A stretch of DNA of 64,000 bases. It comes from Candidatus Magasanikiibacteriota bacterium. GTDB taxonomy: Bacteria > Patescibacteriota > Patescibacteriia > Magasanikbacterales > GWA2-37-8. Made by a program: the position numbers and the translations under genes. The stretch spans positions 99,569 through 163,568 of the forward strand of contig JAPLWQ010000003.1 in the NCBI GenBank assembly GCA_026396515.1. The letters run 5' to 3'. This document shows, one piece after another, positions 22,087 to 41,670 of the stretch (the stretch's first letter is position 1; each line of letters starts with the position of its first letter). The notes below the pieces were generated by a model. The model had not been told where the DNA came from. It worked only from the letters and a program-made list of their open reading frames with translations, and searched no databases.

Positions 22087-22159
22087 GCCGTTGTAGCTCA
22101 GTTGGTAGAGCAACTCCATGGTAAGGAGTAGGTCCGCGGTTCAAATCCGCGCAACGGCT
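22087..22159 (+). tRNA. tRNA-Thr (anticodon GGT)
   Basis: Manual cloverleaf: acceptor GCCGTTG/CAACGGC, D-loop AGTTGGTA, anticodon loop ATGGTAA, T-loop TTCAAAT. Confidence 0.8.
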
Positions 22160-22188
22160 CTGGGTTTACAAATAGTATCGCCTTGTAC

Positions 22189-22261
22189 GCCACCTTAGCT
22201 CAGCTGGTAGAGCAACGGTTTTGTAAACCGTAGGTCGTCGGTCCGAGCCCGACAGGTGGCT
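22189..22261 (+). tRNA. tRNA-Thr (anticodon TGT)
   Basis: Manual cloverleaf: acceptor GCCACCT/AGGTGGC, anticodon loop TTTGTAA. Confidence 0.8.
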
Positions 22262-22277
22262 CGCAGATCATTTAATC

Positions 22278-22359
22278 GGATGGGTTCCCGAGCGGTCAAA
22301 GGGGACAGACTGTAAATCTGTTGGCTCCGCCTTCGAAGGTTCGAATCCTTCCCCATCCA
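22278..22359 (+). tRNA. tRNA-Tyr (anticodon GTA) with a long variable arm
   Basis: Acceptor GGATGGG/CCCATCC, anticodon stem ACAGA/TCTGT, loop CTGTAAA, a 13-nt variable arm and T-arm GAAGG-TTCGAAT-CCTTC. Confidence 0.8.
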
Positions 22360-22386
22360 CATTGTAAATTAATAATATTGAAAAAT

Positions 22387-22551
22387 ATGTCGTCCAAAGA
22401 AAGAGAAAACATGATAAAGATGGAGTGTTCTGAATGTAAGCGCGTTAATTACTTCAGCAGAAAGAATAAAAAACTTCTGAAGAACCGCTTGGAGATAAAG
22501 AAATACTGCCGTCACTGCAAAAAGCACTTGGCACACAAGGAAACAAAGTAA
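22387..22551 (+). CDS. rpmG: 50S ribosomal protein L33
   Basis: [54 protein letters not shown] carries the L33 CxxC...CxxC zinc ribbon. The ORF-track extension back to 22321 would run through tRNA-Tyr. Confidence 0.85.
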
Positions 22552-22555
22552 TTTT

Positions 22556-22584
22556 AAGGGCAGGACTCTTGTCCTGCCTTTTAA
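22556..22584 (+). terminator. Intrinsic terminator after rpmG
   Basis: Hairpin AAGGGCAGGAC-TCTT-GTCCTGCCTT followed by TT. Confidence 0.55.
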
Positions 22585-22588
22585 ACAC

Positions 22589-22626
22589 GGGGGGGTTCGT
22601 ATAGTGGTAGTATTATGGTCTCCAAA
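22589..22626 (+). pseudogene. tRNA-like 5' fragment (Trp-like anticodon loop, no matching 3' half)
   Basis: GGGGGGTTCGTATAGTGGTAGTATTATGGTCTCCAAA has a classic D-loop AGTGGTAG. It shares GGTCTCCAAA with the tRNA-Trp 0.5 kb downstream. No complementary acceptor or anticodon 3' strands were found. Confidence 0.3.
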
Positions 22627-22668
22627 TTGCCTTGTTATTGGAGGAATGATGACGTATAATATAGACAT

Positions 22669-23112
22669 ATGGAAAGTAACATATGTCTAAAATGTCACAA
22701 GAGCAAGCTGATATCCGAATTCAGTATTAGAGATAAGGAATCAAGGCGTTTTCATAGCCTCTGCAAAGATTGCCATTCAAAATATAGGCGAGAGCACTAT
22801 TTGCGGAATAGAGAGAAATATTTAGTTAAGGCAAAACGATGGAACAAGAAACAGACGTTTTCTCTACGCGCATTTATCTTCGACTATCTCTCAAATCATC
22901 CATGTGTAGATTGTGGTTCGAAAGATGTTAGAGTTTTAGATTTCGACCATGAAAGAGATAAGAAAATGGGCATCGCTCAAATGATACGAAATTGTCATTC
23001 ATTGTCATCGGTAGAAAAAGAAATTAAAAAATGCAGAGTAAGATGTGCTAATTGCCATAGAATAAAAACATTTTCACGAGGAAATTTTTGGAAAAATAAA
23101 ATGGGTCCGTAG
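22669..23112 (+). CDS. HNH endonuclease with an N-terminal CxxC/CxxC zinc finger (homing-endonuclease-like)
   Basis: CVDCGSKDVRVLDFDHERDKK...CANCH is an HNH core. The stop codon lies inside the 5' end of tRNA-Trp. Confidence 0.7.
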   Translation: MESNICLKCHKSKLISEFSIRDKESRRFHSLCKDCHSKYRREHYLRNREKYLVKAKRWNKKQTFSLRAFIFDYLSNHPCVDCGSKDVRVLDFDHERDKKMGIAQMIRNCHSLSSVEKEIKKCRVRCANCHRIKTFSRGNFWKNKMGP

Positions 23113-23174
23113 TTTCAATGGTAAAACATCGGTCTCCAAAACCGAGGTTCCCCGTTCGAATCGGGGCGGGCCTG
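23103..23174 (+). tRNA. tRNA-Trp (anticodon CCA)
   Basis: Acceptor GGGTCCG/CGGGCCT (two G-U pairs), anticodon stem TCGGT/ACCGA, loop CTCCAAA, T-arm CCCCG-TTCGAAT-CGGGG. Confidence 0.8.
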
Positions 23175-23238
23175 CGATTTTTACCCCGCATAGGCGCGAA
23201 GCGCATTGTGCGGGGACTACACCCCCTGCGAAATAAAT

Positions 23239-23351: not shown

Positions 23352-23918
23352 ATGCCTGTTCCCGAGAATTTAACCGATGAACAGCTGATTGTAGGCGTAA
23401 GAGAAATTGATAAGGAATTCTACAGTGAGATCATCCGGCGCTATCAAACAAAGCTGTCCCATTATTTGCGAAAATTTATTAAAAGCGGTGATGAACTTGA
23501 AGACGTGCTTCAAGATGTTTTTATAAAGGCATATCGTAACTTGTATGATTTTGACGTGGGTAAGAAATTTTCTCCCTGGATATACCGCATCGCGCATAAT
23601 GAAGCGCTGAATCATGTAAAAAAATATCGCAGGGAATCGGTATCACTCGACGACCAGGAGTTGGAAATATTTGATGAAGGTTTTGATATCAAGGAGACGG
23701 TTGATCGTACTATTGCCCGGGAAAGAATAGAGAGCGCGCTCTTGAAAATTAAAGACAGATATCGCGAACCTATTATATTGTATTTTTTTGAACAAAAGAC
23801 CTATGAAGAGATCGGCGATATTTTACGCTTGCCCCGTAATACTGTCGGCACGCTTGTATCACGTGGAAAAAAATTATTGAAACAATTATTAGCCACTGAA
23901 AAATATGATAGAAAATAA
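23352..23918 (+). CDS. ECF-type sigma-70 family RNA polymerase sigma factor
   Basis: Region 2 is DVLQDVFIKAYRNLYDF...FSPWIYRIAHNEALNHVKK. Region 4 is YEEIGDILRLPRNTVGTLVSRGKKLL. Confidence 0.8.
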   Translation: MPVPENLTDEQLIVGVREIDKEFYSEIIRRYQTKLSHYLRKFIKSGDELEDVLQDVFIKAYRNLYDFDVGKKFSPWIYRIAHNEALNHVKKYRRESVSLDDQELEIFDEGFDIKETVDRTIARERIESALLKIKDRYREPIILYFFEQKTYEEIGDILRLPRNTVGTLVSRGKKLLKQLLATEKYDRK

Positions 23919-29619: not shown

Positions 29620-29651
29620 AATGAAGCGGCTTAGGCCGCTTCATTTTTTTC
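29620..29651. terminator. Bidirectional intrinsic terminator between convergent genes
   Basis: Hairpin AATGAAGCGGC-TTAG-GCCGCTTCATT is flanked by an A-run and a T-run. It overlaps the stop codon of the minus-strand gene. Confidence 0.6.
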
Positions 29652-30956
29652 TTCAACTTGTTTCTTTAACCTCTCAAATAGGTTTGTTTTTTCCAGCGCC
29701 AGTGCAAATTGAAAAGAAAAGGTATTCAATATCTCCCTGTCTTCCGGCAAATAAATTTCACCAGTTTTCTTTTCACCGATCAAAATTTGCGCCAAATTGG
29801 CGCCGTCGTGTTCGGCATTTACAAATAGCTCATCATCATCGCCTTTCGGCAATATTTCAAACAGATCCTCCTCGCTAATTTTTATTGTGTTAGGACCGCC
29901 GTCTCTTTCAAACAGTAATTTTTCCCTGACCAAATAAATTTTTATGCCTGTCGGTTTGAATATTTTATAAAGTTCTTCCGCCGTGCTTTCAATCAGAGAA
30001 TTTAAATCGATATTCAGATTCAGCGCCAAGCTTAAATTATACATCGCTTCCGAATAGGAAATGTGGTCTTTAAAAAATATTTTATCCGTTTTTTTCTGCA
30101 GAAATTTATTTATCGGGGGAATGCCGATTGCGCCGACAAGCGCGGCTAAAAGCGAAGCGATAGGGTAGGATACGGATTGTGACAGGTCAAGCCAAATTAA
30201 CGCCGTGTTGATTATTAAAAGATAAAAGCCGATTATCGCACCGATGATAACGGAATAGATGATCGATTTTTGAATAACAACTTTAATGTTCAGCAGGCCA
30301 TGCTTAAGGATGGTGTAGGCGAGTGCGGCGCTTAGAAAAATTATACATTGTGGGCCAAGCGTAAAATAGGATATATTGCCGAACAGCGGCAGAATCGCGT
30401 TACAAAGCATTGTGCCGAGCGATGCCAGGCCAAAGCCAAGAAATATGTAGCTGATTTGCGCTCTTTGTACCACGGTTGCTTTCCGGCGCATTTCCACCAC
30501 TCTGATCAAACTGAAAATCCACAATATAATTGTATAGCCGAGCACGAAGAAATACAGCGGCCCGGTAGTTGACTCCGCCGCTTTGTTAAACGGAAAGTTT
30601 GTTCCGGTGATGCTGTATTTTGAATATGCAAAAAGAGATAAAACGATTGCCGGAACGTATATCAAAGCGAATTTAAGTATGGTGATTGAATGGCCGGTAA
30701 AAACTTCTATCAGGTTTGCATATATAGCCATGGCAAAAATTGCCGCGATCAGCGCTGTACCCGCCCAGAATATAAGTGATTTTTCCGTGTAAGATATGTC
30801 GGCCAACGCGTTGCCGACCAAACATATCGTGCTGGAAGCAAACAATGCCGCCAAGTATCTTGCCAGTTTGATTTCCCATTTTTTTACAATAAGAAAAGCC
30901 GCAAATCCCAGGTTGATGATTGCTAGAATTGCGGCTGAGTAGGTAAAGGCGAACAT
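29631..30956 (-). CDS. Polytopic membrane protein (~9-10 TM) with a C-terminal cytoplasmic GAF-like domain and no kinase or output domain
   Basis: A hydrophobic N-terminal ~330 aa is followed by a soluble ~150-aa C-terminal domain. The probable start is ATG 30956 (MFAFTYS...), and the ORF-track extension to 31154 overlaps the upstream gene. Confidence 0.55.
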   Translation of the reverse strand: MFAFTYSAAILAIINLGFAAFLIVKKWEIKLARYLAALFASSTICLVGNALADISYTEKSLIFWAGTALIAAIFAMAIYANLIEVFTGHSITILKFALIYVPAIVLSLFAYSKYSITGTNFPFNKAAESTTGPLYFFVLGYTIILWIFSLIRVVEMRRKATVVQRAQISYIFLGFGLASLGTMLCNAILPLFGNISYFTLGPQCIIFLSAALAYTILKHGLLNIKVVIQKSIIYSVIIGAIIGFYLLIINTALIWLDLSQSVSYPIASLLAALVGAIGIPPINKFLQKKTDKIFFKDHISYSEAMYNLSLALNLNIDLNSLIESTAEELYKIFKPTGIKIYLVREKLLFERDGGPNTIKISEEDLFEILPKGDDDELFVNAEHDGANLAQILIGEKKTGEIYLPEDREILNTFSFQFALALEKTNLFERLKKQVEEKNEAA

Positions 30957-30976
30957 AGGCGGGTTAAGTTGGTGTT

Positions 30977-31720
30977 TCAGGGAAAGCAGCACGGGCTGCG
31001 GTAAACGACAATGACCGAAAAATTTCGGCTCTGCGCGTCTTCCAGGAAATCCGGATATACCGAATGCATGGAAAGACCGTTCCCGGTATAGAAGCCGAGA
31101 ATGGGGTCGGATTTTCCCGGTGCCGGCAGGTCGAGTTCCGGTATGCGCGGACAAGTGCTGTCAAGTGTGCCGCGCGTGCGCTTCACGGTTTGCGCCGCAT
31201 ACCAAAGCGCGATCTTCATTACAGCATCTTTGTCTAAAAGATCCTTGTTAATTATACCAAGATTATGGATCTTTTCCAAGTAGGCGCTGAAACCGGAAAT
31301 GCGCGATGTGCCGACTGCGTACGGTTTGCCTCGGCTGGTGATGTGCTTGCCGAGATTCTTGATCAGAGTCAAACCGACGCCCGGTGAGAGTGAATCGAGA
31401 GTGATCATGCAGAAGGTGTTGCCGTCAGGTTTGTGAGTGGCGCGGGAGTAGCCGTGGTCGGTAAGTTCGTCGTAGGTACGGCAGGGAATCTGATCGGCCG
31501 GGTTAAAATCAATCAACTGGAGATAACAGAACGCTTTTACCGCGTCGTTTTTTTCAGCCACCAAGAACCCGTCGGGATGCGTATCCAGCCAGCATCTCAC
31601 GTGGTCTTCGATGAACGGCGTGCATCCGGTACCGTGGTAAACCTGTTGTTCAATCGACACGATTGCCGGAATGTCTGCTTCGGCGCCAAGCCGAATACTG
31701 ACCATTGACCTATCTGTCAT
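30977..31720 (-). CDS. Putative GNAT-family acetyltransferase (N-terminal), GC-rich gene
   Basis: The IRLGAEADIPAIVSIEQQVYHG...FLVAEKNDAVKAFCYLQL fold is GNAT-like. The function is low-confidence. Confidence 0.45.
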   Translation of the reverse strand: MTDRSMVSIRLGAEADIPAIVSIEQQVYHGTGCTPFIEDHVRCWLDTHPDGFLVAEKNDAVKAFCYLQLIDFNPADQIPCRTYDELTDHGYSRATHKPDGNTFCMITLDSLSPGVGLTLIKNLGKHITSRGKPYAVGTSRISGFSAYLEKIHNLGIINKDLLDKDAVMKIALWYAAQTVKRTRGTLDSTCPRIPELDLPAPGKSDPILGFYTGNGLSMHSVYPDFLEDAQSRNFSVIVVYRSPCCFP

Positions 31721-31936
31721 GCGTTTCCTCCAGTTGTGGTCGGTTGAGGATTTGTATTATTACGAATATGTCGCCTTTGAGTTGTGTAATGAACAATTTT
31801 TCGTCTGCATTCTTGTTTTCAGAACAAGGACGTACAAAATTTTACCACATTAATCATAAATAAGCAATATTCGGATGAATAAAAAAGCCCCGGCGCAAAT
31901 GAATACGTCGGGGCGGGTTGGGTTTGAACGAACGGG

Positions 31937-32407
31937 TCAGCTAATTTGTTCGCATTCCACTTCGAAGATGAGCGCGTTGAGCCAGAGGATGAACTTCCCG
32001 GCGGCCTTGAACGAAACGGTCATCAGGCGTTTGTGCGGGAAATGGTACTTGAAGGCCGGCGGGCAGGCATCTTCGCTCGTGATCGAGGCGATAATGCCGG
32101 GAAAGCCGTCTTCGCGCAACCACTCGGCGATCTTCGTGCCGGTGATCTTGTCCATATTCTCGTCGAGGAGAACGATGTCGTCGCGACCGCCCAGGATGTC
32201 CGGGTAGACGGCGCTTGACTGGATGATGGTAACCGAGAAGATGTTGTCCCAGTGCAGAAGCAGCGGAACGATTCCCTCCACGGCGTTTTCGTCACCGTCC
32301 ACCACGATCACGCGCAGTGGGCGCATTGGCCGACGCATCAGCTCCCTGAGTTTGGGCAAAGATTTGCCGAGTGAGAAAACGCGAATGGGCGGATCTTTCT
32401 TTTTCAT
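31937..32407 (-). CDS. Stand-alone receiver (REC/CheY-like) domain protein, copy 1
   Basis: RVIVVDGDE...DIVLLDENMDKITG is a phospho-acceptor Asp context. It has no output domain and is a paralog of 33089..33550. Confidence 0.6.
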   Translation of the reverse strand: MKKKDPPIRVFSLGKSLPKLRELMRRPMRPLRVIVVDGDENAVEGIVPLLLHWDNIFSVTIIQSSAVYPDILGGRDDIVLLDENMDKITGTKIAEWLREDGFPGIIASITSEDACPPAFKYHFPHKRLMTVSFKAAGKFILWLNALIFEVECEQIS

Positions 32408-32500
32408 GCTTTCACTTTGTCTCCTTCGGCCTTACCCCAAAAGGGCAGGTCATTTTTTGATTGAAAATGTGCGTAAACAATGTAGCAGTTTTTTCAGTGT

Positions 32501-32538
32501 TTGTCAATATTGACAAAGATATAGTTATCCGCTATTCT
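32501..32538 (+). promoter_or_regulatory. Sigma70-type promoter with a palindromic operator for the small-protein gene, copy 1
   Basis: The perfect palindrome TTGTCAATATTGACAA embeds a -35 TTGACA, followed by a 17-nt spacer and -10 TATTCT. The RBS AAAGGAGG lies at 32570. Confidence 0.6.
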
Positions 32539-32583
32539 ATCGGACGCGTGCTTTCATAAACCAACTCAAAAAGGAGGAAACGG

Positions 32584-32955
32584 ATGACGATACTAGTTAT
32601 CGCGAAAGCATGGTTTGAAAACGACGAGCGTTCGTTCGGCAGACCCTGCGGTGTCATTCGTGGGGCGAACATGATGAGCCAGCCGTTCTTTTCCAAGGAG
32701 GTCGGTCTGGCCACGGTTGAGGCAGTGAAGGCGCACTTGTCGCTTGCCGATGACGAATGTGACATTCTGCGCCGAGATATCCTCTCGTCCGATCTCGCCT
32801 ACACGCGCAATGTTTTTGACATGGCGGTCCACATCATCGCCGTGGAACTGTGCTTATCGGCGCTCTCCGAGCACAGCGATATTTCTCAACTCGACCTCGA
32901 TTTTCAAAAGAACGGAAACGAAAATCCGGGTGTGAACGGTACAACTGTTCACTAA
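32584..32955 (+). CDS. Small hypothetical protein (W-x-ENDE-x-SFGRPCGVIRG family), copy 1
   Basis: 123 aa with a strong RBS. It is a paralog of 33713..34141. Confidence 0.55.
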   Translation: MTILVIAKAWFENDERSFGRPCGVIRGANMMSQPFFSKEVGLATVEAVKAHLSLADDECDILRRDILSSDLAYTRNVFDMAVHIIAVELCLSALSEHSDISQLDLDFQKNGNENPGVNGTTVH

Positions 32956-32976
32956 CAACCATTCGATGTTCTTTCC

Positions 32977-33012
32977 CGCGCTGGCGATTCAATCGCCGGC
33001 GCTTTTTTTAAA
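32977..33012 (+). terminator. Intrinsic terminator, copy 1
   Basis: GCGCTGGCGATTCAATCGCCGGCGC followed by T7 and then A7. Confidence 0.6.
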
Positions 33013-33088
33013 AAAATACCCTCCCGACTATTGCCGGGAGGGTTGCGTAATGAGCGAGAGAGGAGAATGTGGAGGCGCGGCCTTGCGC

Positions 33089-33550
33089 TTACTCCATCCG
33101 GTCGCGCAGGACCGTTTCGATCAGGCCGTTCATGAACTTGATGAACCTTTCGGTTTCCTTGATGTCGCTGCCGACGCATGCTTTGTGGCCGAAGTGCGTT
33201 TTGAAATCGTTGGGTGACTCGTCGCCCTGTCCGATGGAAGCGATCATGCCGCAGTATGAACTGCTGCGCAGCTGCTCGGTGACCTGCGCCCCGGTGAGGC
33301 CGTCCAACTGCTCGTCGAGAAGCACGATGTCGCTCTCCAAATCGAGCGGAGGCATCTGGCCGTCGGACTGTATCACGGTGAGCAGGCCGAGGTTGTTCCA
33401 GTGTCCGAGAAGTGTGCGCATGCCGGCGACCGCAACTTCGCTGTCGTCGATTATGAGCACGCGAACCGGCCTTTTTGCAGGTATGCGCATCTGATTCTTC
33501 AAGCCCTGCATAAATTCCGCATAGAACACCGCCATGTCACGCAGGCTCAT
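33089..33550 (-). CDS. Stand-alone receiver (REC/CheY-like) domain protein, copy 2
   Basis: RVLIIDDSE...DIVLLDEQLDGLTG. It is a paralog of copy 1. Confidence 0.6.
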   Translation of the reverse strand: MSLRDMAVFYAEFMQGLKNQMRIPAKRPVRVLIIDDSEVAVAGMRTLLGHWNNLGLLTVIQSDGQMPPLDLESDIVLLDEQLDGLTGAQVTEQLRSSSYCGMIASIGQGDESPNDFKTHFGHKACVGSDIKETERFIKFMNGLIETVLRDRME

Positions 33551-33619
33551 CTTGCCCTCCTTTGTTTGATTAAAATTTTCCCCATTCCCGTTTGCATATT
33601 ACGCCTGATATAGTTTTGC

Positions 33620-33674
33620 TGTCAAGAAAATTCAGGCTTGAAGGATTGACAAAATCCGAAAAATCTGTTATTCT
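33620..33674 (+). promoter_or_regulatory. Sigma70-type promoter and operator, copy 2
   Basis: TGTCAA (33620) and TTGACA (33646, also the -35) form an inverted repeat. A 17-nt spacer precedes -10 TATTCT (33669). The RBS is AAAGGAGG. Confidence 0.55.
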
Positions 33675-33712
33675 GTCACAACGTTTAGTGAAAAACAAAA
33701 AGGAGGTGCGAT

Positions 33713-34141
33713 ATGGGGTTGTTCATCGCGCGCGTCTGGTTCATTTACGACGAGAATACCTTCCGGAAGCCCTGTGGATTTGTACGTGGAAATGGCTTTA
33801 TTAGCCAGCCGTTTTTTTCCAAACAAATCGGCAAGGTCGCTATCGCCATGGTAGGCAACATGTTCAATCTTAGTATCGAAGAGATGAAATTTCTGCGTTC
33901 GGCGCTGGTGATGTCCGGCTTGCAGGAGGCGGAAAACGCTTTGGATCGGGTCGTGACGCGTGTCAGAGTCGTATCAAGCATTACCGAAAAAATTTCCTCG
34001 GTGATACTCAAGACCACTAAGCAGACGCTTAGCGATGACGCAGTTGCTGCAATGTTCAAGCCGCTCAATGTGTACTTCGACTGCGTCGACATCTTGGATG
34101 CTTCCAATACGCCGACCACCAAGTACAGATTCATCCACTGA
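33713..34141 (+). CDS. Small hypothetical protein, copy 2
   Basis: It has W-x-x-DEN-x-FRKPCGFVRG. It is a paralog of 32584..32955. Confidence 0.55.
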   Translation: MGLFIARVWFIYDENTFRKPCGFVRGNGFISQPFFSKQIGKVAIAMVGNMFNLSIEEMKFLRSALVMSGLQEAENALDRVVTRVRVVSSITEKISSVILKTTKQTLSDDAVAAMFKPLNVYFDCVDILDASNTPTTKYRFIH

Positions 34142-34164
34142 CAATATCAACAAGTGCTCTTTCC

Positions 34165-34199
34165 CGCGTCGGCGATTCAATCGCCGGCGCATTTTTTTT
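34165..34199 (+). terminator. Intrinsic terminator, copy 2
   Basis: GCGTCGGCGATTCAATCGCCGGCGC followed by a T-run. It is near-identical to copy 1. Confidence 0.6.
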
Positions 34200-34206
34200 A
34201 TAAAAA

Positions 34207-34375
34207 TCTCCCTCTCCTTTACTAAAGAGAAGGTAGCGACGCTTTCCCTCTCCTTTTTAAGGAGAGGGTTAGGGTGAGGTAATTTACACTTCCTTTTTAA
34301 TTCCCTCTCCTTTCTAAGGAGAGGGTTAGGGTGAGGTAAAATTCCCCCTCTTTTGAAGAGGGGGTTAGGGGGAGT
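34207..34375. repeat. Four tandem REP-like palindromic units (hairpin plus TTAGGGTGAGG tail)
   Basis: The units lie at 34207-34240 (degenerate), 34247-34282, 34302-34338 and 34343-34375. The consensus is CCCTCTCC-N6-GGAGAGGG-TTAGGGTGAGG. The fourth unit has compensatory changes (CCCCCTC/GAGGGGG). Confidence 0.7.
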
Positions 34376-35674
34376 TTAAACCTCCGCGAACATCATCGGA
34401 ATGCCGAGCCGTTTGCGTTTAGTTTCACCAAAAAGTTTATCGTGATGGCGTTCCGGTATATCGCCGCGGTCGCCAAGATGTGCGCCAAAGCGCTGCGCTT
34501 CAAAACTGGAGCCCAAAAAAATAGCATGCTTGCCATATTTTTTTGCCAGCTCGTCCACGCTTTCATAAAGTTTCACCATTTTTTGCATCCGTGCGCCCGA
34601 GGTAAATAAATCAGGTTGAATCACCGCCGGATTCAAATTGGCGAGCACAATGCCGGTCGCGCGGTAGGGTACGCCGCGTTTTAGTAAAGTATAAAAAACA
34701 TCCCGCGCCGCCGCGATAATTTCCTGCGGGGTGGCGGTCGGCCGCGACAGCGCAAACTCGGCGCCGGCGTGACGGAAGTCCTGCGTGCGCAAAACTATTG
34801 CCACCGTGCCGGCGATCAATTTGTGCCGGCGCGCTTTGATGCAGGCGTTTTCAATATTTTTGGAAAGCTGGGAAAAAATAAAATCCGCGCTGTCTGATGG
34901 GGGAGTGAAGGTCTTAAATTTTTGAATAGAAAAATACGAAGATTTTTCTTCCAGTAGCAGTGGCATAACAGATGCGCCGTTTAATTCCTGCCAAATTTCC
35001 CAGAACGGACGCGCCAGATTGTTTTTCACCCACCACTCATTGGCCCGGGCAAAATCACCGGCCGTAAAAAAATTGTGGCGCTTTAAAAAAATAGTTGTAG
35101 CCGGGCCAATACCCCAGACCTTTTCCACCGGATACTTGTCCAGAAACCGCCAGCGGTCGCGCGTGGAGATAATAGTTAAGCCGGACGGCTTTTTCCATTT
35201 GGAACCCATCTTGGCCAACACCTTGCTCGGCGCGAGACCAACGGAGAAAGTGAACCCGAGTTCGCTGTCCAAATCGTGTTTAATTTTTTCCGCGAGCGCT
35301 ATATATCCCGAGCCATGGCGATTGCCATATCCCGTCAGGTCAGCAAAGCATTCATCTATCCCATATTCTTCCACGGCATGCGTGTAGCGCCGTACAATGG
35401 CGTACAAACGGCGCGAGAGCAGGGAATAGGTTTCATAGTCGGACGGCAGGATAACCGCGTCGGGGCAAATCCGGCGGATTTCAAACAAGGGCATGGCCCG
35501 GGTTACTCCGCGCGCTTTGGCTTCATAGCTCATGGATGAAGCGATTCCGCGCTCTTTGCCGGTCACCACCGGTTTGCCTTTCAGTTCGGGGTGGCGCGAT
35601 TGTTCGCAGGAAGCAAAAAACGCGTCGCCATCGACGTGCAGTATTGCTTTTGGAAAAGAAGAAATTGCGAACAT
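34376..35674 (-). CDS. dinB: Y-family translesion DNA polymerase (DinB/UmuC-like)
   Basis: HVDGDAFFASCE is the palm-domain catalytic motif. Little-finger domain. Confidence 0.85.
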   Translation of the reverse strand: MFAISSFPKAILHVDGDAFFASCEQSRHPELKGKPVVTGKERGIASSMSYEAKARGVTRAMPLFEIRRICPDAVILPSDYETYSLLSRRLYAIVRRYTHAVEEYGIDECFADLTGYGNRHGSGYIALAEKIKHDLDSELGFTFSVGLAPSKVLAKMGSKWKKPSGLTIISTRDRWRFLDKYPVEKVWGIGPATTIFLKRHNFFTAGDFARANEWWVKNNLARPFWEIWQELNGASVMPLLLEEKSSYFSIQKFKTFTPPSDSADFIFSQLSKNIENACIKARRHKLIAGTVAIVLRTQDFRHAGAEFALSRPTATPQEIIAAARDVFYTLLKRGVPYRATGIVLANLNPAVIQPDLFTSGARMQKMVKLYESVDELAKKYGKHAIFLGSSFEAQRFGAHLGDRGDIPERHHDKLFGETKRKRLGIPMMFAEV

Positions 35675-35733: not shown

Positions 35734-36441
35734 ATGCCCAAACAATATCCGCGCGTAAAATTTATCATTGACCGCAAGCGGGATATGTTCGCCTTAAAGT
35801 TAGGCGACGAATATATCAAGCATTGTTTTCCCAATAATATGCGCTTTGTCGGTGGCAAAGATTTTTCCAAAAAAGAAAGGTTAAAATTGGCGAAGAGCTT
35901 TGCCGAGAACAGATACGAGAAAGAACTGAACATATTCAGGAGCAATCTAAAAGTGACGGAACGGAAATGGCGCAAGCATGAAAAAATATTTTTCCGGCTG
36001 GTTGATAAAATTTTTAAGAATTATCCATGGCCGAAAGGCAACTATCGTGGCTATATCTCCGCTTTCTATCGTTTCCCGCGCAATATCAGCCAAAAGACAT
36101 TTGCTTTTCCCGCTCAGTATAATAATCCCAGATTTGTTAATTTTGATCTATTGGTAATCGCTCACGAGATGCTGCATTTCATCACCTATGATTATTTGCA
36201 GAAAAAATATCATTTGAAGCCAAGTGAGCATCATAATAAGGATAATTTTTTCTGGCAGTTTACGGAAAACTTGAATGTGCTGATTGAAAATTCTAAAATG
36301 TGGCGTCCATTTTCCGGTAAATTTGTTTCCGGGCCTTACGATAAGAAAGCGGCGGAGTTGCTTGCATCAATGGAAAAAATTTGGCGGAAAAATCATGATC
36401 TGGATAATTTGATTGTCAAAACTTTTAAACTTAAAAAATAG
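35734..36441 (+). CDS. Hypothetical protein with an HExxH motif
   Basis: IAHEMLHF. AT-rich relative to its neighbours. Confidence 0.45.
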   Translation: MPKQYPRVKFIIDRKRDMFALKLGDEYIKHCFPNNMRFVGGKDFSKKERLKLAKSFAENRYEKELNIFRSNLKVTERKWRKHEKIFFRLVDKIFKNYPWPKGNYRGYISAFYRFPRNISQKTFAFPAQYNNPRFVNFDLLVIAHEMLHFITYDYLQKKYHLKPSEHHNKDNFFWQFTENLNVLIENSKMWRPFSGKFVSGPYDKKAAELLASMEKIWRKNHDLDNLIVKTFKLKK

Positions 36442-37071: not shown

Positions 37072-37087
37072 AGTGAACAAGTGTTCA
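37072..37087. promoter_or_regulatory. LexA (Cheo/SOS) box
   Basis: GTGAACAAGTGTTCAC contains GAAC-N4-GTTC (Gram-positive-type consensus CGAACRNRYGTTCG). It lies in the divergent lexA/helicase promoter region and overlaps a -10-like TATACT on the lexA strand. Confidence 0.7.
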
Positions 37088-37134
37088 CCTTGTCAATGTG
37101 GATAACTTTTCACCCCGTTAAACCCCGCCTAATT

Positions 37135-38536: not shown

Positions 38537-38572
38537 TCCCTCTCCTTACCAAGGAGAGGGCTGGGGTGAGGT
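38537..38572. repeat. Fifth copy of the REP-like unit
   Basis: CCTCCCTCTCC-TTACCAA-GGAGAGGG-CTGGGGTGAGGT. Confidence 0.6.
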
Positions 38573-40836: not shown

Positions 40837-41670
40837 ATGCCGAGAAAGGCAGGGTCCAAAATGGCTAAAGTTTTATCACATATTAAAGAAAAACCTTATT
40901 TCAATAAGGGTGATTTTGTTTTATATCATGGTGACTGCATAAACACCCTCGAGCAAATACCGGAAAATTCGGTTGATATGGTTTTTGCGGATCCACCCTA
41001 TCTTTTGTCGAATGGCGGTTTTACATGTGACGGCGGAAAAATGGTTAGCGTAAATAAAGGCAAGTGGGATGTGAGCAACGGTCTTAAACAGGACTTTGAA
41101 TTTCATTTATCATGGATCAATGCGTGCAAACGCGTTTTAAAACCCGGGGGCACTATTTGGATCAGTGGAACATATCATTCAATATACCAATGCGGCTTCG
41201 CGCTTCAAGTGGAAAAGTTTCATATATTAAACGATATTGCATGGTTCAAACCGAATGCTTCGCCGAACTTGAGTTGCCGTTTTTTTACTGCCAGCCATGA
41301 AACATTAATTTGGGCGAGGAAAGACAAAAAAGCAAAGCACATGTTTAATTATAAATTGATGAAAAACGGTGATTGGCCGGATGATTTTATTAAAAAGCCA
41401 AACTTACAAATGCGAAGCGTGTGGTCCATTTATCCACCAAAAAGAGACGAGAAGAAATTTGGAAAACATCCAACTCAGAAACCGATTGATTTGCTTGTTC
41501 GGATTGTTTTGGCTAGTACAGATAAGGGTGACGTGGTTTTGGACCCGTTTTCTGGGTCCGCCACAACTGGATTGGCCGCGATATTAAATAATCGTAAATT
41601 TATTGGTGTTGATTTAGATAGAAAGTATTTGGATTTATCGATAAAGCGTTTCAGAAATTTAAATGCATAG
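40837..41670 (+). CDS. Beta-class DNA methyltransferase (N6-adenine or N4-cytosine), DPPY then FxGxG order
   Basis: Motif IV is VFADPPYLL and motif I is LDPFSGSATTGLAA. An alternative start lies at 40861. Confidence 0.8.
   Translation: MPRKAGSKMAKVLSHIKEKPYFNKGDFVLYHGDCINTLEQIPENSVDMVFADPPYLLSNGGFTCDGGKMVSVNKGKWDVSNGLKQDFEFHLSWINACKRVLKPGGTIWISGTYHSIYQCGFALQVEKFHILNDIAWFKPNASPNLSCRFFTASHETLIWARKDKKAKHMFNYKLMKNGDWPDDFIKKPNLQMRSVWSIYPPKRDEKKFGKHPTQKPIDLLVRIVLASTDKGDVVLDPFSGSATTGLAAILNNRKFIGVDLDRKYLDLSIKRFRNLNA

What the first reader, a model, noticed from the sequence alone, without database searches (positions are those of the whole stretch)
31937..34200. Tandemly duplicated two-gene cassette: orphan receiver-domain protein and a divergent small protein, each with the same promoter/operator and terminator
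Unit 1 (31937-33012) and unit 2 (33089-34199) each contain a minus-strand stand-alone REC-like protein (…VIVVDGDE…DIVLLDENMDKITG / …VLIIDDSE…DIVLLDEQLDGLTG). Each also has a plus-strand 120-140-aa protein with a shared N-terminus (W-x-ENDE-x-SFGRPCG-V/F-I/V-RG…SQPFFSK). Each carries a TTGACA-N17-TATTCT promoter, an AAAGGAGG RBS and a GCG-(C/T)-GGCGATTCAATCGCCGGCGC-T7 terminator. The proteins have diverged (by eye about 40-50% identity) while the regulatory DNA stayed nearly identical. That points to an old duplication under selection on the regulatory elements. The small-protein family is unknown to me. The cassette sits in a GC-elevated patch beside a kinase-less membrane sensor-like protein.
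Basis: seen in the sequence. Interest (0 to 1): 0.65.

Follow-up and report, generated by a model that had tools for sequence, protein, structure and literature searches.

The report
Duplicated receiver-plus-unknown-protein gene pair
A tiny uncultured bacterium (Candidatus Magasanikbacteria) carries two neighbouring copies of a gene pair, each made of a stripped-down signalling "receiver" protein and a small protein from an extremely rare family with no known function. The pair is real and recurs in relatives, but what it does is unknown and its wider importance is modest.

Summary
Window 31937-34200 contains two head-to-tail units. Each has a minus-strand 153-156 aa receiver-like protein and a plus-strand 123-142 aa protein, transcribed divergently. 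The receivers are 42% identical (E 1e-33). The small proteins are 39% identical over their N-terminal 76 aa (E 2e-20).

"Nearly identical regulatory DNA" is true only for the terminator hairpin (91% identical). The promoters share little beyond their hexamers. The supposed operator palindrome is two back-to-back -35 boxes, one for each divergent gene.

The receivers have the CheY-like fold and keep Asp, Asp, Ser, Phe and Lys at the active-site positions. The model lacks helices alpha2 and alpha4, and both proteins score below Pfam's cut-off.

The small protein belongs to an unannotated domain family with a QPFFSK motif. I found no Pfam, NCBIfam, PHROG or PADLOC match and no PDB or BFVD fold match. 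An exhaustive search of 1.84 billion proteins gave about nine real hits. Every hit whose genomic context I could recover lies at one variable locus next to IMS-LexA-PIF1.

The receiver duplication is old, because both types occur in several lineages. Copy number ranges from 0 to 2 among relatives. One relative looks like a recombinant joined at the shared -35 core.

Best guess: a single-domain response regulator and its protein partner. That function is inferred, not shown.

The parts
31881..31915 (-). Terminator-like hairpin plus T-run downstream of REC1. On the minus strand it reads GCCCCGACG..CGCCGGGGC TTTTTT.
   Evidence: Read directly from the sequence. The consensus scan did not list it because the loop is longer than 8 nt.
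31937..32407 (-). REC1 (type A), a 156-aa stand-alone receiver-like protein.
   Evidence: Pfam Response_reg 21.8 bits, below the 30.2 cut-off. 42% identical to REC2. Orthologues P0004 (64%) and P0006 (57%).
32479..32507 (-). Promoter-like site for REC1: TTGACA-N17-TACATT, with TG before the -10.
   Evidence: Consensus scan, 10 of 12 positions. The -35 box is conserved in L005.
32510..32538 (+). Promoter-like site for small1: TTGACA-N17-TATTCT. Its -35 lies 2 bp from the REC1 -35, and the two together form the palindrome.
   Evidence: ATTGACAAA is invariant in 5 aligned intergenic regions.
32570..32577 (+). Shine-Dalgarno sequence AAAGGAGG for small1.
   Evidence: Sequence.
32584..32955 (+). 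small1, 123 aa. A divergent, acidic (pI 4.8) member of the QPFFSK-domain family that lacks the C-terminal MFKPLNxYFD helix.
   Evidence: The only database match is itself.
32978..33009 (+). Intrinsic terminator of small1: 11-bp stem, 3-nt loop, T7.
   Evidence: -20.8 kcal/mol. 91% identical to the unit 2 copy.
33010..33043 (-). Intrinsic terminator of REC2 on the minus strand: ACCCTCCCGGCAATAGTCGGGAGGGT plus a T-run.
33089..33550 (-). REC2 (type B), a 153-aa stand-alone receiver-like protein.
   Evidence: Pfam 23.2 bits, below the 30.2 cut-off. AF2 model pLDDT 89. Foldseek matches to EvgA, PhoP and NarL receivers. The family profile matches the EvgA REC at E 2.7e-8.
33596..33625 (-). Promoter-like site for REC2: TTGACA-N18-TAATAT.
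   Evidence: The -35 is conserved in L001.
33646..33674 (+). Promoter-like site for small2: TTGACA-N17-TATTCT.
33699..33706 (+). Shine-Dalgarno sequence AAAGGAGG for small2.
   Evidence: Sequence.
33713..34141 (+). small2, 142 aa. The conserved type of QPFFSK-domain protein: a beta-hairpin, four helices, and a disordered tail ending in FIH.
   Evidence: Orthologues are 76-77% identical with dN/dS 0.13-0.21. AF2 model pLDDT 80. No fold match.
34166..34198 (+). Intrinsic terminator of small2.
   Evidence: -20.4 kcal/mol. Conserved in L001 and L005; L002 has a different stem that still pairs.

Best explanation
Shown:
- The locus is an array of two divergently transcribed gene pairs in a Candidatus Magasanikbacteria genome.
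- Each pair encodes a stand-alone receiver-domain protein with no output domain. It keeps the phospho-acceptor pocket: Asp at the end of beta1, Asp at the end of beta3, Ser on beta4, and Phe and Lys on beta5.
- The structure model lacks helices alpha2 and alpha4. It adds an N-terminal helix and a long alpha5.
- Each pair also encodes a small cytoplasmic protein from an unannotated 'QPFFSK' domain family.
- Both genes in a pair start from back-to-back sigma70-type promoters, and each ends at its own intrinsic terminator.

Inferred:
- Like other single-domain response regulators, the receiver probably acts by binding another protein. The divergently transcribed QPFFSK protein is the most likely partner or target. 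The state of the receiver (phosphorylated or otherwise switched) would then control what the small protein does.
- The back-to-back promoters would keep the two proteins co-expressed.
- The small protein's conserved C-terminal hydrophobic-His tail, on a disordered linker, could be a tethering peptide.
- The phosphodonor is unknown. No histidine kinase was seen among the annotated or scanned neighbours, so acetyl phosphate, a distant kinase, or phosphorylation-independent action are all possible.

The two receiver types (A and B) are old paralogues. The number of units changes among relatives, probably through recombination between the repeated promoter or terminator cores.
For: Receiver identity:
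- Sub-threshold Pfam hits and many weak NCBIfam response-regulator hits.
- The family profile matches the EvgA receiver at E 2.7e-8. DIVLLD aligns to the EvgA stretch DIVIID, the beta3 position expected for the phospho-acceptor Asp.
- The AF2 model has pLDDT 89, with 63 Foldseek PDB matches at E <= 0.001; the top-listed ones are receiver domains at probability ~1.0.
- D35, S105, F120 and K123 are invariant. D79 is present in 7 of the 8 aligned sequences and also in the L012 copy.

Pair conservation:
- A divergent small gene sits next to a REC gene in the window (twice), L001, L002/L003, L004/L005 and L012.
- Orthologues are under purifying selection: dN/dS is 0.13-0.21 for small and 0.19-0.36 for REC.
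- Both promoters are conserved across loci.

Single-domain response regulators acting through protein partners is established (PMC12802240, PMC8995066, PMC9923393).

Copy-number change:
- L018 has no unit. L001 has one. L002 has one small gene and two RECs. The window has two units.
- The L005 intergenic region is chimeric. Its REC side is 79% identical to unit 1, and its small side is 82% identical to unit 2. The junction lies at the shared -35 core.
Against: - There is no direct evidence that the two proteins interact. No multimer model, no co-variation analysis (too few sequences) and no expression data are available.
- More distant family members are not next to a recognisable receiver. 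P0014 and P0015 sit beside an HD-domain protein, a Zn-ribbon protein, or an unrelated 142-aa protein (hhalign probability 0.4%).
- The two- and three-domain paralogues in L007 and L018 have no REC nearby.
- One REC-A orthologue (L002) has Ser in place of the acceptor Asp, so phosphorylation cannot be universal.
- All loci come from one narrow clade with shared synteny, so neighbourhood conservation is weak evidence for functional linkage.
- Divergent transcription with separate terminators is a looser coupling than an operon.
Confidence: 0.4

Rival explanations
1. The genes are neighbours but not partners. The QPFFSK protein works independently of the receiver, for example with the HD-domain phosphohydrolase or the Zn-ribbon/HTH-like protein seen beside distant members. 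REC adjacency would then reflect only shared residence in one variable genomic slot of a narrow clade.
For: - P0014 and P0015 are followed by an HD protein (PF01966 at 43.6 bits, HD_5 at 36.9 bits). P0014 and the L007 paralogues lie beside a Zn-ribbon protein.
- The multi-domain paralogues have no REC within 9-13 kb.
- All loci are syntenic at MacB..IMS-LexA-PIF1.
Against: - Within the small2, small1 and P0013 subgroup, every locus with enough flank has a divergent REC. That is six loci in all, including the distant L012.
- The back-to-back promoter architecture is conserved across them.
Confidence: 0.25
2. The cassette is an accessory module, such as a defence, addiction or stress module, in a variable island. 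It would be gained, lost and amplified by recombination rather than being a housekeeping signalling pair.
For: - The cassette is present, absent or variable in copy number among close relatives (0, 1 or 2 units).
- GC content is raised over this patch.
- In L018 the three-domain paralogue sits near Fic, NERD and a type ISP restriction enzyme. In the window a DNA methylase lies at 40837-41670.
- The family is extremely rare.
Against: - No PADLOC or PHROG match and none on viral contigs.
- No integrase, transposase or tRNA lies at the borders.
- No toxin-like domain is present.
- The genes are not co-transcribed as toxin-antitoxin pairs are.
- The flanking backbone is syntenic and not obviously mobile.
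Confidence: 0.15
3. The small protein is a DNA-binding autoregulator of the divergent promoter region, and the receiver modulates it.
For: - The genes are divergently arranged around a conserved core (ATTGACAAA plus the upstream TGTCAA).
- small2 and its close orthologues are mildly basic (pI 8.6-9.2).
Against: - The conserved DNA is fully explained by the two -35 boxes.
- The family's pI ranges from 4.6 to 9.2, and small1 has a net charge of -8.
- No HTH or other DNA-binding family or fold was detected.
- Tandem two- and three-domain versions are atypical for such regulators.
Confidence: 0.08
4. small1 is a degenerating or neofunctionalised extra copy, and only the small2-type gene carries the family's function. 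This can be true alongside any of the explanations above.
For: - small1 is 27-33% identical to every other member and sits on a long branch.
- It has lost the C-terminal helix.
- Its net charge has switched from +3.6 to -8.2.
- No orthologue was found in 5.8 billion or 1.84 billion sequences.
Against: - The ORF is intact, with a consensus promoter, RBS and strong terminator.
- It keeps every family-invariant residue: W, F, PC, G, QPFFSK, G, E, S, L and D.
- P0013 has a similar short, acidic form ending in TVH.
Confidence: 0.12

Closest known systems
Single-domain (stand-alone) response regulators of the CheY / Spo0F / DivK / CpdR kind
   Same: A receiver fold with no output domain. It keeps the acidic pocket Asp, the acceptor Asp, a Ser/Thr, the aromatic switch residue three positions before the Lys, and the Lys itself. 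It is expected to act through protein-protein contacts.
   Different: It scores below Pfam's gathering cut-off. The model lacks alpha2 and alpha4 and has an extra N-terminal helix and a long alpha5. No kinase, HPt or chemotaxis genes were seen among the neighbours. One orthologue has Ser at the acceptor position.
Receiver domain of NarL/EvgA-type response regulators (best sequence and structure matches)
   Same: Best profile hit is the EvgA REC at E 2.7e-8. Best Foldseek hits are 8zwn/5f64 (EvgA), 1mvo (PhoP) and 1rnl (NarL).
   Different: There is no HTH output domain. The alignment covers only beta1 to beta4 (about 85-90 residues) for EvgA. Identity is 29%.
Receivers with a degenerate alpha4, such as the HWE-kinase-associated Sma0114/SdrG 'FATGUY' type (from my own recollection, not tested here)
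   Same: A stand-alone receiver in which the alpha4 region is not a regular helix.
   Different: No PFxFATGY motif is visible in the alignment. There is no partner HWE kinase. The phylum is different.
RpfG-type REC + HD-GYP signalling (a loose analogy only)
   Same: In distant relatives the QPFFSK gene is followed by an HD/HD_5 protein. The locus family therefore brings together receiver-like and HD proteins.
   Different: In the window there is no HD protein (tblastn). The domains are on separate proteins. The HD protein has HHILEG, not the HHExxDGxGYP signature.

Membership tests
Response regulator receiver domain (Pfam PF00072, CheY-like) | Scores at or above the Pfam gathering threshold (30.2 bits). 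| tested here: not met
   REC1 scores 21.8, REC2 23.2 and L012 REC 22.0 bits.
Response regulator receiver domain (Pfam PF00072, CheY-like) | A (beta-alpha)5 flavodoxin-like fold. | tested here: inconclusive
   The AF2 model (pLDDT 89) gives 63 PDB matches at E <= 0.001. The top-listed ones are receiver domains at probability ~1.0, with TM 0.44-0.61. DSSP shows no alpha2 or alpha4 helix.
Response regulator receiver domain (Pfam PF00072, CheY-like) | Acidic residue(s) at the end of beta1 (CheY D12/D13). | tested here: met
   The first Asp (REC2 D35) is invariant in 8 sequences. The second position varies among D, G and N.
Response regulator receiver domain (Pfam PF00072, CheY-like) | Phospho-acceptor Asp at the end of beta3 (CheY D57). 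| tested here: met
   DIVLLD: Asp is present in 7 of 8 aligned sequences and in L012. It is Ser in the L002 REC-A. The motif aligns to the EvgA stretch DIVIID, the beta3 position expected for the acceptor Asp.
Response regulator receiver domain (Pfam PF00072, CheY-like) | Thr/Ser on beta4, an aromatic switch residue, and Lys on beta5 (CheY T87, Y106, K109). | tested here: met
   S105, F120 and K123 are invariant. The F-to-K spacing of 3 matches CheY. The CheY numbering is from my own knowledge.
Response regulator receiver domain (Pfam PF00072, CheY-like) | Is phosphorylated on the Asp. | not testable with these tools
   This needs an acetyl-phosphate or phosphoramidate assay.
Classical two-component system | A cognate histidine kinase (HisKA + HATPase_c) encoded nearby. 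| tested here: not met
   The neighbouring 7TM protein has only HisKA_7TM. None of the neighbours scanned at 23-42 kb has a kinase domain. The precomputed Pfam annotation of L001 lists none.
Histidine phosphotransfer (HPt) protein, considered for the small protein | A conserved phospho-accepting His on a four-helix bundle. | tested here: not met
   No His is conserved in the domain. small2 has one His, its C-terminal residue, and that residue is absent in L001 and L005.
Known receiver phosphatases or partners (CheZ, CheX, Spo0E, Rap), considered for the small protein | Sequence or fold similarity to a family member. | tested here: not met
   No Pfam or NCBIfam hit. The family profile against PDB gives best E 0.017, to an unrelated protein. 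Foldseek against PDB gives best E 1.7 with TM below 0.3.
Known anti-phage systems, including receiver-containing ones | A match to PADLOC models. | tested here: not met
   No hit at E <= 0.1 for either REC or either small protein.
Type II toxin-antitoxin pair | Two small genes co-transcribed in one operon, one with a toxin fold. | tested here: not met
   The genes are divergent with separate promoters and terminators. No toxin or antitoxin family hit was found.
Intrinsic (Rho-independent) terminator | A GC-rich hairpin followed directly by a U-tract at the gene's 3' end. | tested here: met
   11-bp stems with 8 GC pairs and T7-T8 runs. Folding energy about -20 kcal/mol, z-scores -3.7 and -4.8.
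LexA (SOS) regulon | A LexA box in the promoter region. | tested here: not met
   GAACN4GTTC occurs only inside the IMS gene (35252) and upstream of lexA (37075). None lies in the cassette.

The most novel reading that the evidence does not exclude
QPFFSK-domain proteins are a previously undescribed class of partner or effector for minimal receiver domains that lack alpha2 and alpha4. The family also occurs as tandem two- and three-domain proteins and beside HD phosphohydrolases. Together they would form a lineage-specific signalling or stress module in CPR bacteria that works without a conventional histidine kinase. Its unit number would be tuned by recombination between the repeated promoter and terminator cores.
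Probability: 0.25. Interest if true: 0.55.

Novelty: new variant of a known kind. Interest (0 to 1): 0.4.

Why it matters
CPR/Patescibacteria have very small genomes and few recognisable signalling systems. How they sense and respond to their environment is largely unknown. This locus offers a compact and experimentally tractable candidate: two roughly 150-aa proteins, clear promoters, and natural variants with 0, 1 or 2 units.

It also defines a protein domain with no annotation and no structural neighbour in PDB or BFVD, and a receiver variant that Pfam's cut-off misses.

The family is extremely rare, and where its source could be traced it is confined to one narrow clade. The impact outside CPR biology and response-regulator evolution is therefore limited.

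Tried and rejected
- A word-indexed search with small1 alone found only itself.
- The exhaustive profile search gave 11 hits. Two of them (P0008, 5975 aa; P0011, 1447 aa) are long repeat proteins whose score is summed over repeats, so I treat them as spurious.
- Scans of genome contigs and metagenome contigs each returned only one locus that I already had.
- Viral contigs hold neither family.
- Rfam found nothing above gathering scores around the terminators or UTRs. The REC 5'UTRs are not unusually structured.
- I rejected SOS control because there is no LexA box in the cassette. In L007 the box lies about 150 nt upstream of the paralogue's own promoter.
- I rejected the idea that P0013 is a small1 orthologue. 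P0013 is no closer to small1 (53.5 bits) than to small2 (63.2 bits), and the grouping has only 26% bootstrap support.
- The 142-aa gene in L015, which sits where REC would be, could not be shown to be receiver-like (hhalign probability 0.4%).
- The 247-aa and 7TM neighbours gave no informative PDB or family matches.
I reran it with the 6 permitted rows.
Full report
**Source.** The window comes from a Candidatus Magasanikbacteria (CPR/Patescibacteria) metagenome-assembled genome. small1, REC2 and small2 are the NCBI proteins NTW66_02790, NTW66_02795 and NTW66_02800, all annotated as hypothetical.

**Observation check.**
- REC1 31937-32407(-), 156 aa
- small1 32584-32955(+), 123 aa
- REC2 33089-33550(-), 153 aa
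- small2 33713-34141(+), 142 aa

REC1 and REC2 are 42% identical (E 1e-33). small1 and small2 are 39% identical over the first 76 residues (E 2e-20). After that point small1 diverges and lacks the C-terminal helix.

I scored DNA identity between the units segment by segment (on the alignment):

| Segment | Identity |
|---|---|
| REC coding region | 50% |
| Intergenic region | 41% |
| -35 to -10 stretch | 53% |
| Small gene, N-terminal half | 47% |
| Small gene, C-terminal half | 32% |
| Terminator hairpin plus T-run | 91% (29/32) |

So "nearly identical regulatory DNA" is true for the terminator only. The hairpin motif occurs nowhere else in the window. It folds at -20.8 and -20.4 kcal/mol.

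**Promoters.** The consensus scan finds four sigma70-like sites in this region, two in each intergenic region:
- TTGACA-N17-TATTCT on the + strand for each small gene.
- TTGACA-N17/18-TACATT or TAATAT on the - strand for each REC gene.

In unit 1 the two -35 hexamers are 2 bp apart. Together they form the perfect palindrome TTTGTCAATATTGACAAA. This looks like an operator, but back-to-back divergent promoters explain it fully.

Alignment with the orthologous intergenic regions of four relatives shows ATTGACAAA and TATTYT to be conserved. Each gene also has its own terminator. No LexA box lies in the cassette, and Rfam finds nothing significant.

**The receiver-like proteins.**
- Pfam Response_reg hits are below threshold: 21.8 and 23.2 bits against a cut-off of 30.2.
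- NCBIfam gives many weak hits to the receiver halves of NarL, EvgA and MtrA-type regulators.
- A profile built from eight family members matches the EvgA receiver at E 2.7e-8. DIVLLD aligns to the EvgA stretch DIVIID, the beta3 position expected for the acceptor Asp.
- The AF2 model of REC2 (pLDDT 89, pTM 0.86) retrieves receiver domains from the PDB at probability ~1.0.
- DSSP on the model shows beta1-alpha1-beta2-loop-beta3-alpha3-beta4-loop-beta5-alpha5. There is no alpha2 or alpha4 helix. There is an extra N-terminal helix (residues 3-18) and a long alpha5 (130-150).
- D35, S105, F120 and K123 are invariant. The acceptor Asp (D79) is present in seven of the eight aligned sequences and in L012. 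The L002 REC-A copy has Ser there.

These are therefore divergent, minimal, stand-alone receivers. Most of them keep a competent-looking phosphorylation site. No histidine kinase is encoded among the annotated or scanned neighbours. The neighbouring 7TM protein has only the HisKA_7TM membrane region.

**The small proteins.**
- No Pfam, NCBIfam, PHROG or PADLOC family matches them.
- An exhaustive HMMER search of 1.84 billion cluster representatives returned 11 hits. Two are repeat-protein artefacts.
- The real members are single-domain proteins of 129-148 aa, plus proteins with two or three tandem copies of the same domain (P0010, P0012, P0016, P0017).
- The domain signature is W-x-F...F-x-x-P-C...R-G...Q-P-F-F-S-K-x-x-G...S-x-L-P...D.
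- The AF2 model of small2 (pLDDT 80; residues 10-80 above 90) has an N-terminal beta-hairpin, four helices, and a disordered tail from residue 125.
- In most single-domain members the tail ends in a conserved hydrophobic-His motif: FIH, YLH or TVH.
- Foldseek against PDB and BFVD finds nothing (best E 1.7 and 0.41; TM-scores mostly below 0.35, the few higher values being short-target normalisations). The larger fold libraries were unavailable.
- The family has no conserved His and no consistent charge (pI 4.6-9.2). This argues against an HPt role and against family-wide DNA binding.

**Genome context in relatives.**

| Locus | Arrangement |
|---|---|
| L001 (255-kb Magasanikbacteria contig) | Collinear with the window from MacB to PIF1, but with one unit: small2-type divergent from REC-B |
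| L002/L003 | IMS, small, REC-A, REC-B |
| L004/L005 | small2-type divergent from REC-A |
| L006 | REC-B directly followed by REC-A |
| L012 | The distant P0013 divergent from a REC-B-like gene |
| L018 | Same backbone (7TM, 244 aa, IMS, LexA, PIF1) with no unit; a three-domain paralogue lies a few genes beyond PIF1, near Fic, NERD and a type ISP restriction enzyme |
| L007 | Three two-domain paralogues next to lexA, no REC within 9 kb |
| L013, L015 | P0014 and P0015 are followed by an HD-domain protein and lack a recognisable receiver |

Within the closer subgroup, the small gene and the REC gene are always divergent neighbours (six loci). Across the whole domain family the partner varies.

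**Evolution.**
- Neighbour-joining trees put the receivers into two clades, A and B. Each clade has members from several lineages, so the REC duplication predates those splits.
- Orthologues are under purifying selection. dN/dS is 0.19-0.36 for REC and 0.13-0.21 for small2 against L001 and L005.
- small1 is an outlier. It is 27-33% identical to all other members, has no orthologue in any database searched, has lost the C-terminal helix, and carries a net charge of -8.2 against +3.6 for small2.
- small1 nonetheless keeps every family-invariant residue and has intact expression signals.
- Synonymous sites between the paralogues are saturated (pS about 0.7). Recent origin therefore cannot explain the near-identical terminators.
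- The same hairpin is about 90% conserved in L001 and L005 despite dS of 0.6-1.0. L002 has a different stem that still pairs. This points to selection on the hairpin. Local gene conversion is not excluded.
- The L005 intergenic region is chimeric. Its REC side is 79% identical to unit 1 (50% to unit 2). Its small side is 82% identical to unit 2 (62% to unit 1). The switch occurs at the shared -35 core.
- This is the product expected if recombination between the two promoter cores of a two-unit array deleted small1 and REC-B. It suggests that the two-unit state is older than the window lineage and that unit number changes by such events.

**Interpretation.** I rate as most likely (about 0.4) that each unit encodes a single-domain response regulator and its protein partner, co-expressed from back-to-back promoters. 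This follows the way other output-less receivers work (PMC12802240, PMC8995066, PMC9923393). The interaction, the phosphodonor and the output are all inferred.

The rivals are:
- Neighbours without functional coupling (0.25).
- An accessory or defence-like module in a variable island (0.15).
- A DNA-binding autoregulator (0.08).

Separately, small1 may be a decaying or neofunctionalised copy.

**Verdict.** This is a genuine and carefully observed feature. It is a new variant of a known theme (an orphan receiver with a partner) that involves an unannotated domain family. Interest is moderate because the family is tiny, clade-restricted and functionally opaque.

Noticed in passing
window 34205-34380 and 38551-38571: REP-like hairpin repeats (CCCTCTCC..GGAGAGGG followed by TTAGGGTGAGG). 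Three copies lie between the small2 terminator and the end of the IMS gene. Another lies just after the PIF1 helicase gene. They may be stacked terminators or a small intergenic repeat family.
   Followed up: partly
window 37073-37088: A Cheo-type LexA box, GTGAACAAGTGTTCAC, sits between lexA(-) and the PIF1-like helicase(+). It is conserved at the same place in L001 and L007. This suggests SOS control of lexA and the helicase in this CPR lineage.
   Followed up: partly
window 35734-36441 (+): A 235-aa ORF with an HEMLH (HExxH-like) motif lies between the Y-family polymerase (IMS) gene and lexA. It has no significant Pfam or NCBIfam match. It is conserved in L007 (237 aa) but absent in L001 and L018. 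It could be a metalloprotease linked to the SOS locus.
   Followed up: no
window 29631-31154 (-): The 7TM protein has only the HisKA_7TM membrane region and a C-terminal part of roughly 150 aa with no HisKA or HATPase_c domain. The listed 507-aa ORF (TTG start) is probably over-extended. The L001 orthologue begins at the Met that gives 442 aa, about position 30959.
   Followed up: partly
window 30977-31720 (-): A conserved 247-aa protein lies between REC1 and the 7TM gene, with orthologues in L001 and L018. It matches no Pfam, NCBIfam or PDB sequence. It stays beside the 7TM gene even where the REC/small cassette is absent.
   Followed up: partly
L013 1149-2000; L015 5519-6373: In the distant family members P0014 and P0015, the QPFFSK gene is followed by a 283-284 aa HD-domain protein (PF01966 and HD_5). 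No homologue of it is in the window.
   Followed up: partly
L007 3018-3683; L013 29-568: A Zn-ribbon protein with an HTH-like C-terminus lies next to QPFFSK-family genes in two loci. The two copies are 46% identical.
   Followed up: no
L007 1863-5400; L018 6001-7185: QPFFSK domains also occur as two- and three-domain proteins. Three such paralogues lie next to lexA in L007. In L018 the three-domain protein lies near Fic, NERD and type ISP restriction-modification genes.
   Followed up: partly
L002 1543-2025: This REC-A orthologue has Ser in place of the phospho-acceptor Asp (DIVLLSEE) and Asn at the second acidic position. It is likely a pseudo-receiver.
   Followed up: no
window 23352-23918 (+) and 40837-41670 (+): An ECF-type sigma factor (Sigma70_r2/r4) and an N6/N4 DNA methylase flank the wider GC-elevated region. 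A tRNA cluster (Thr, Thr, Tyr, Trp) lies at 22087-23175.
   Followed up: no
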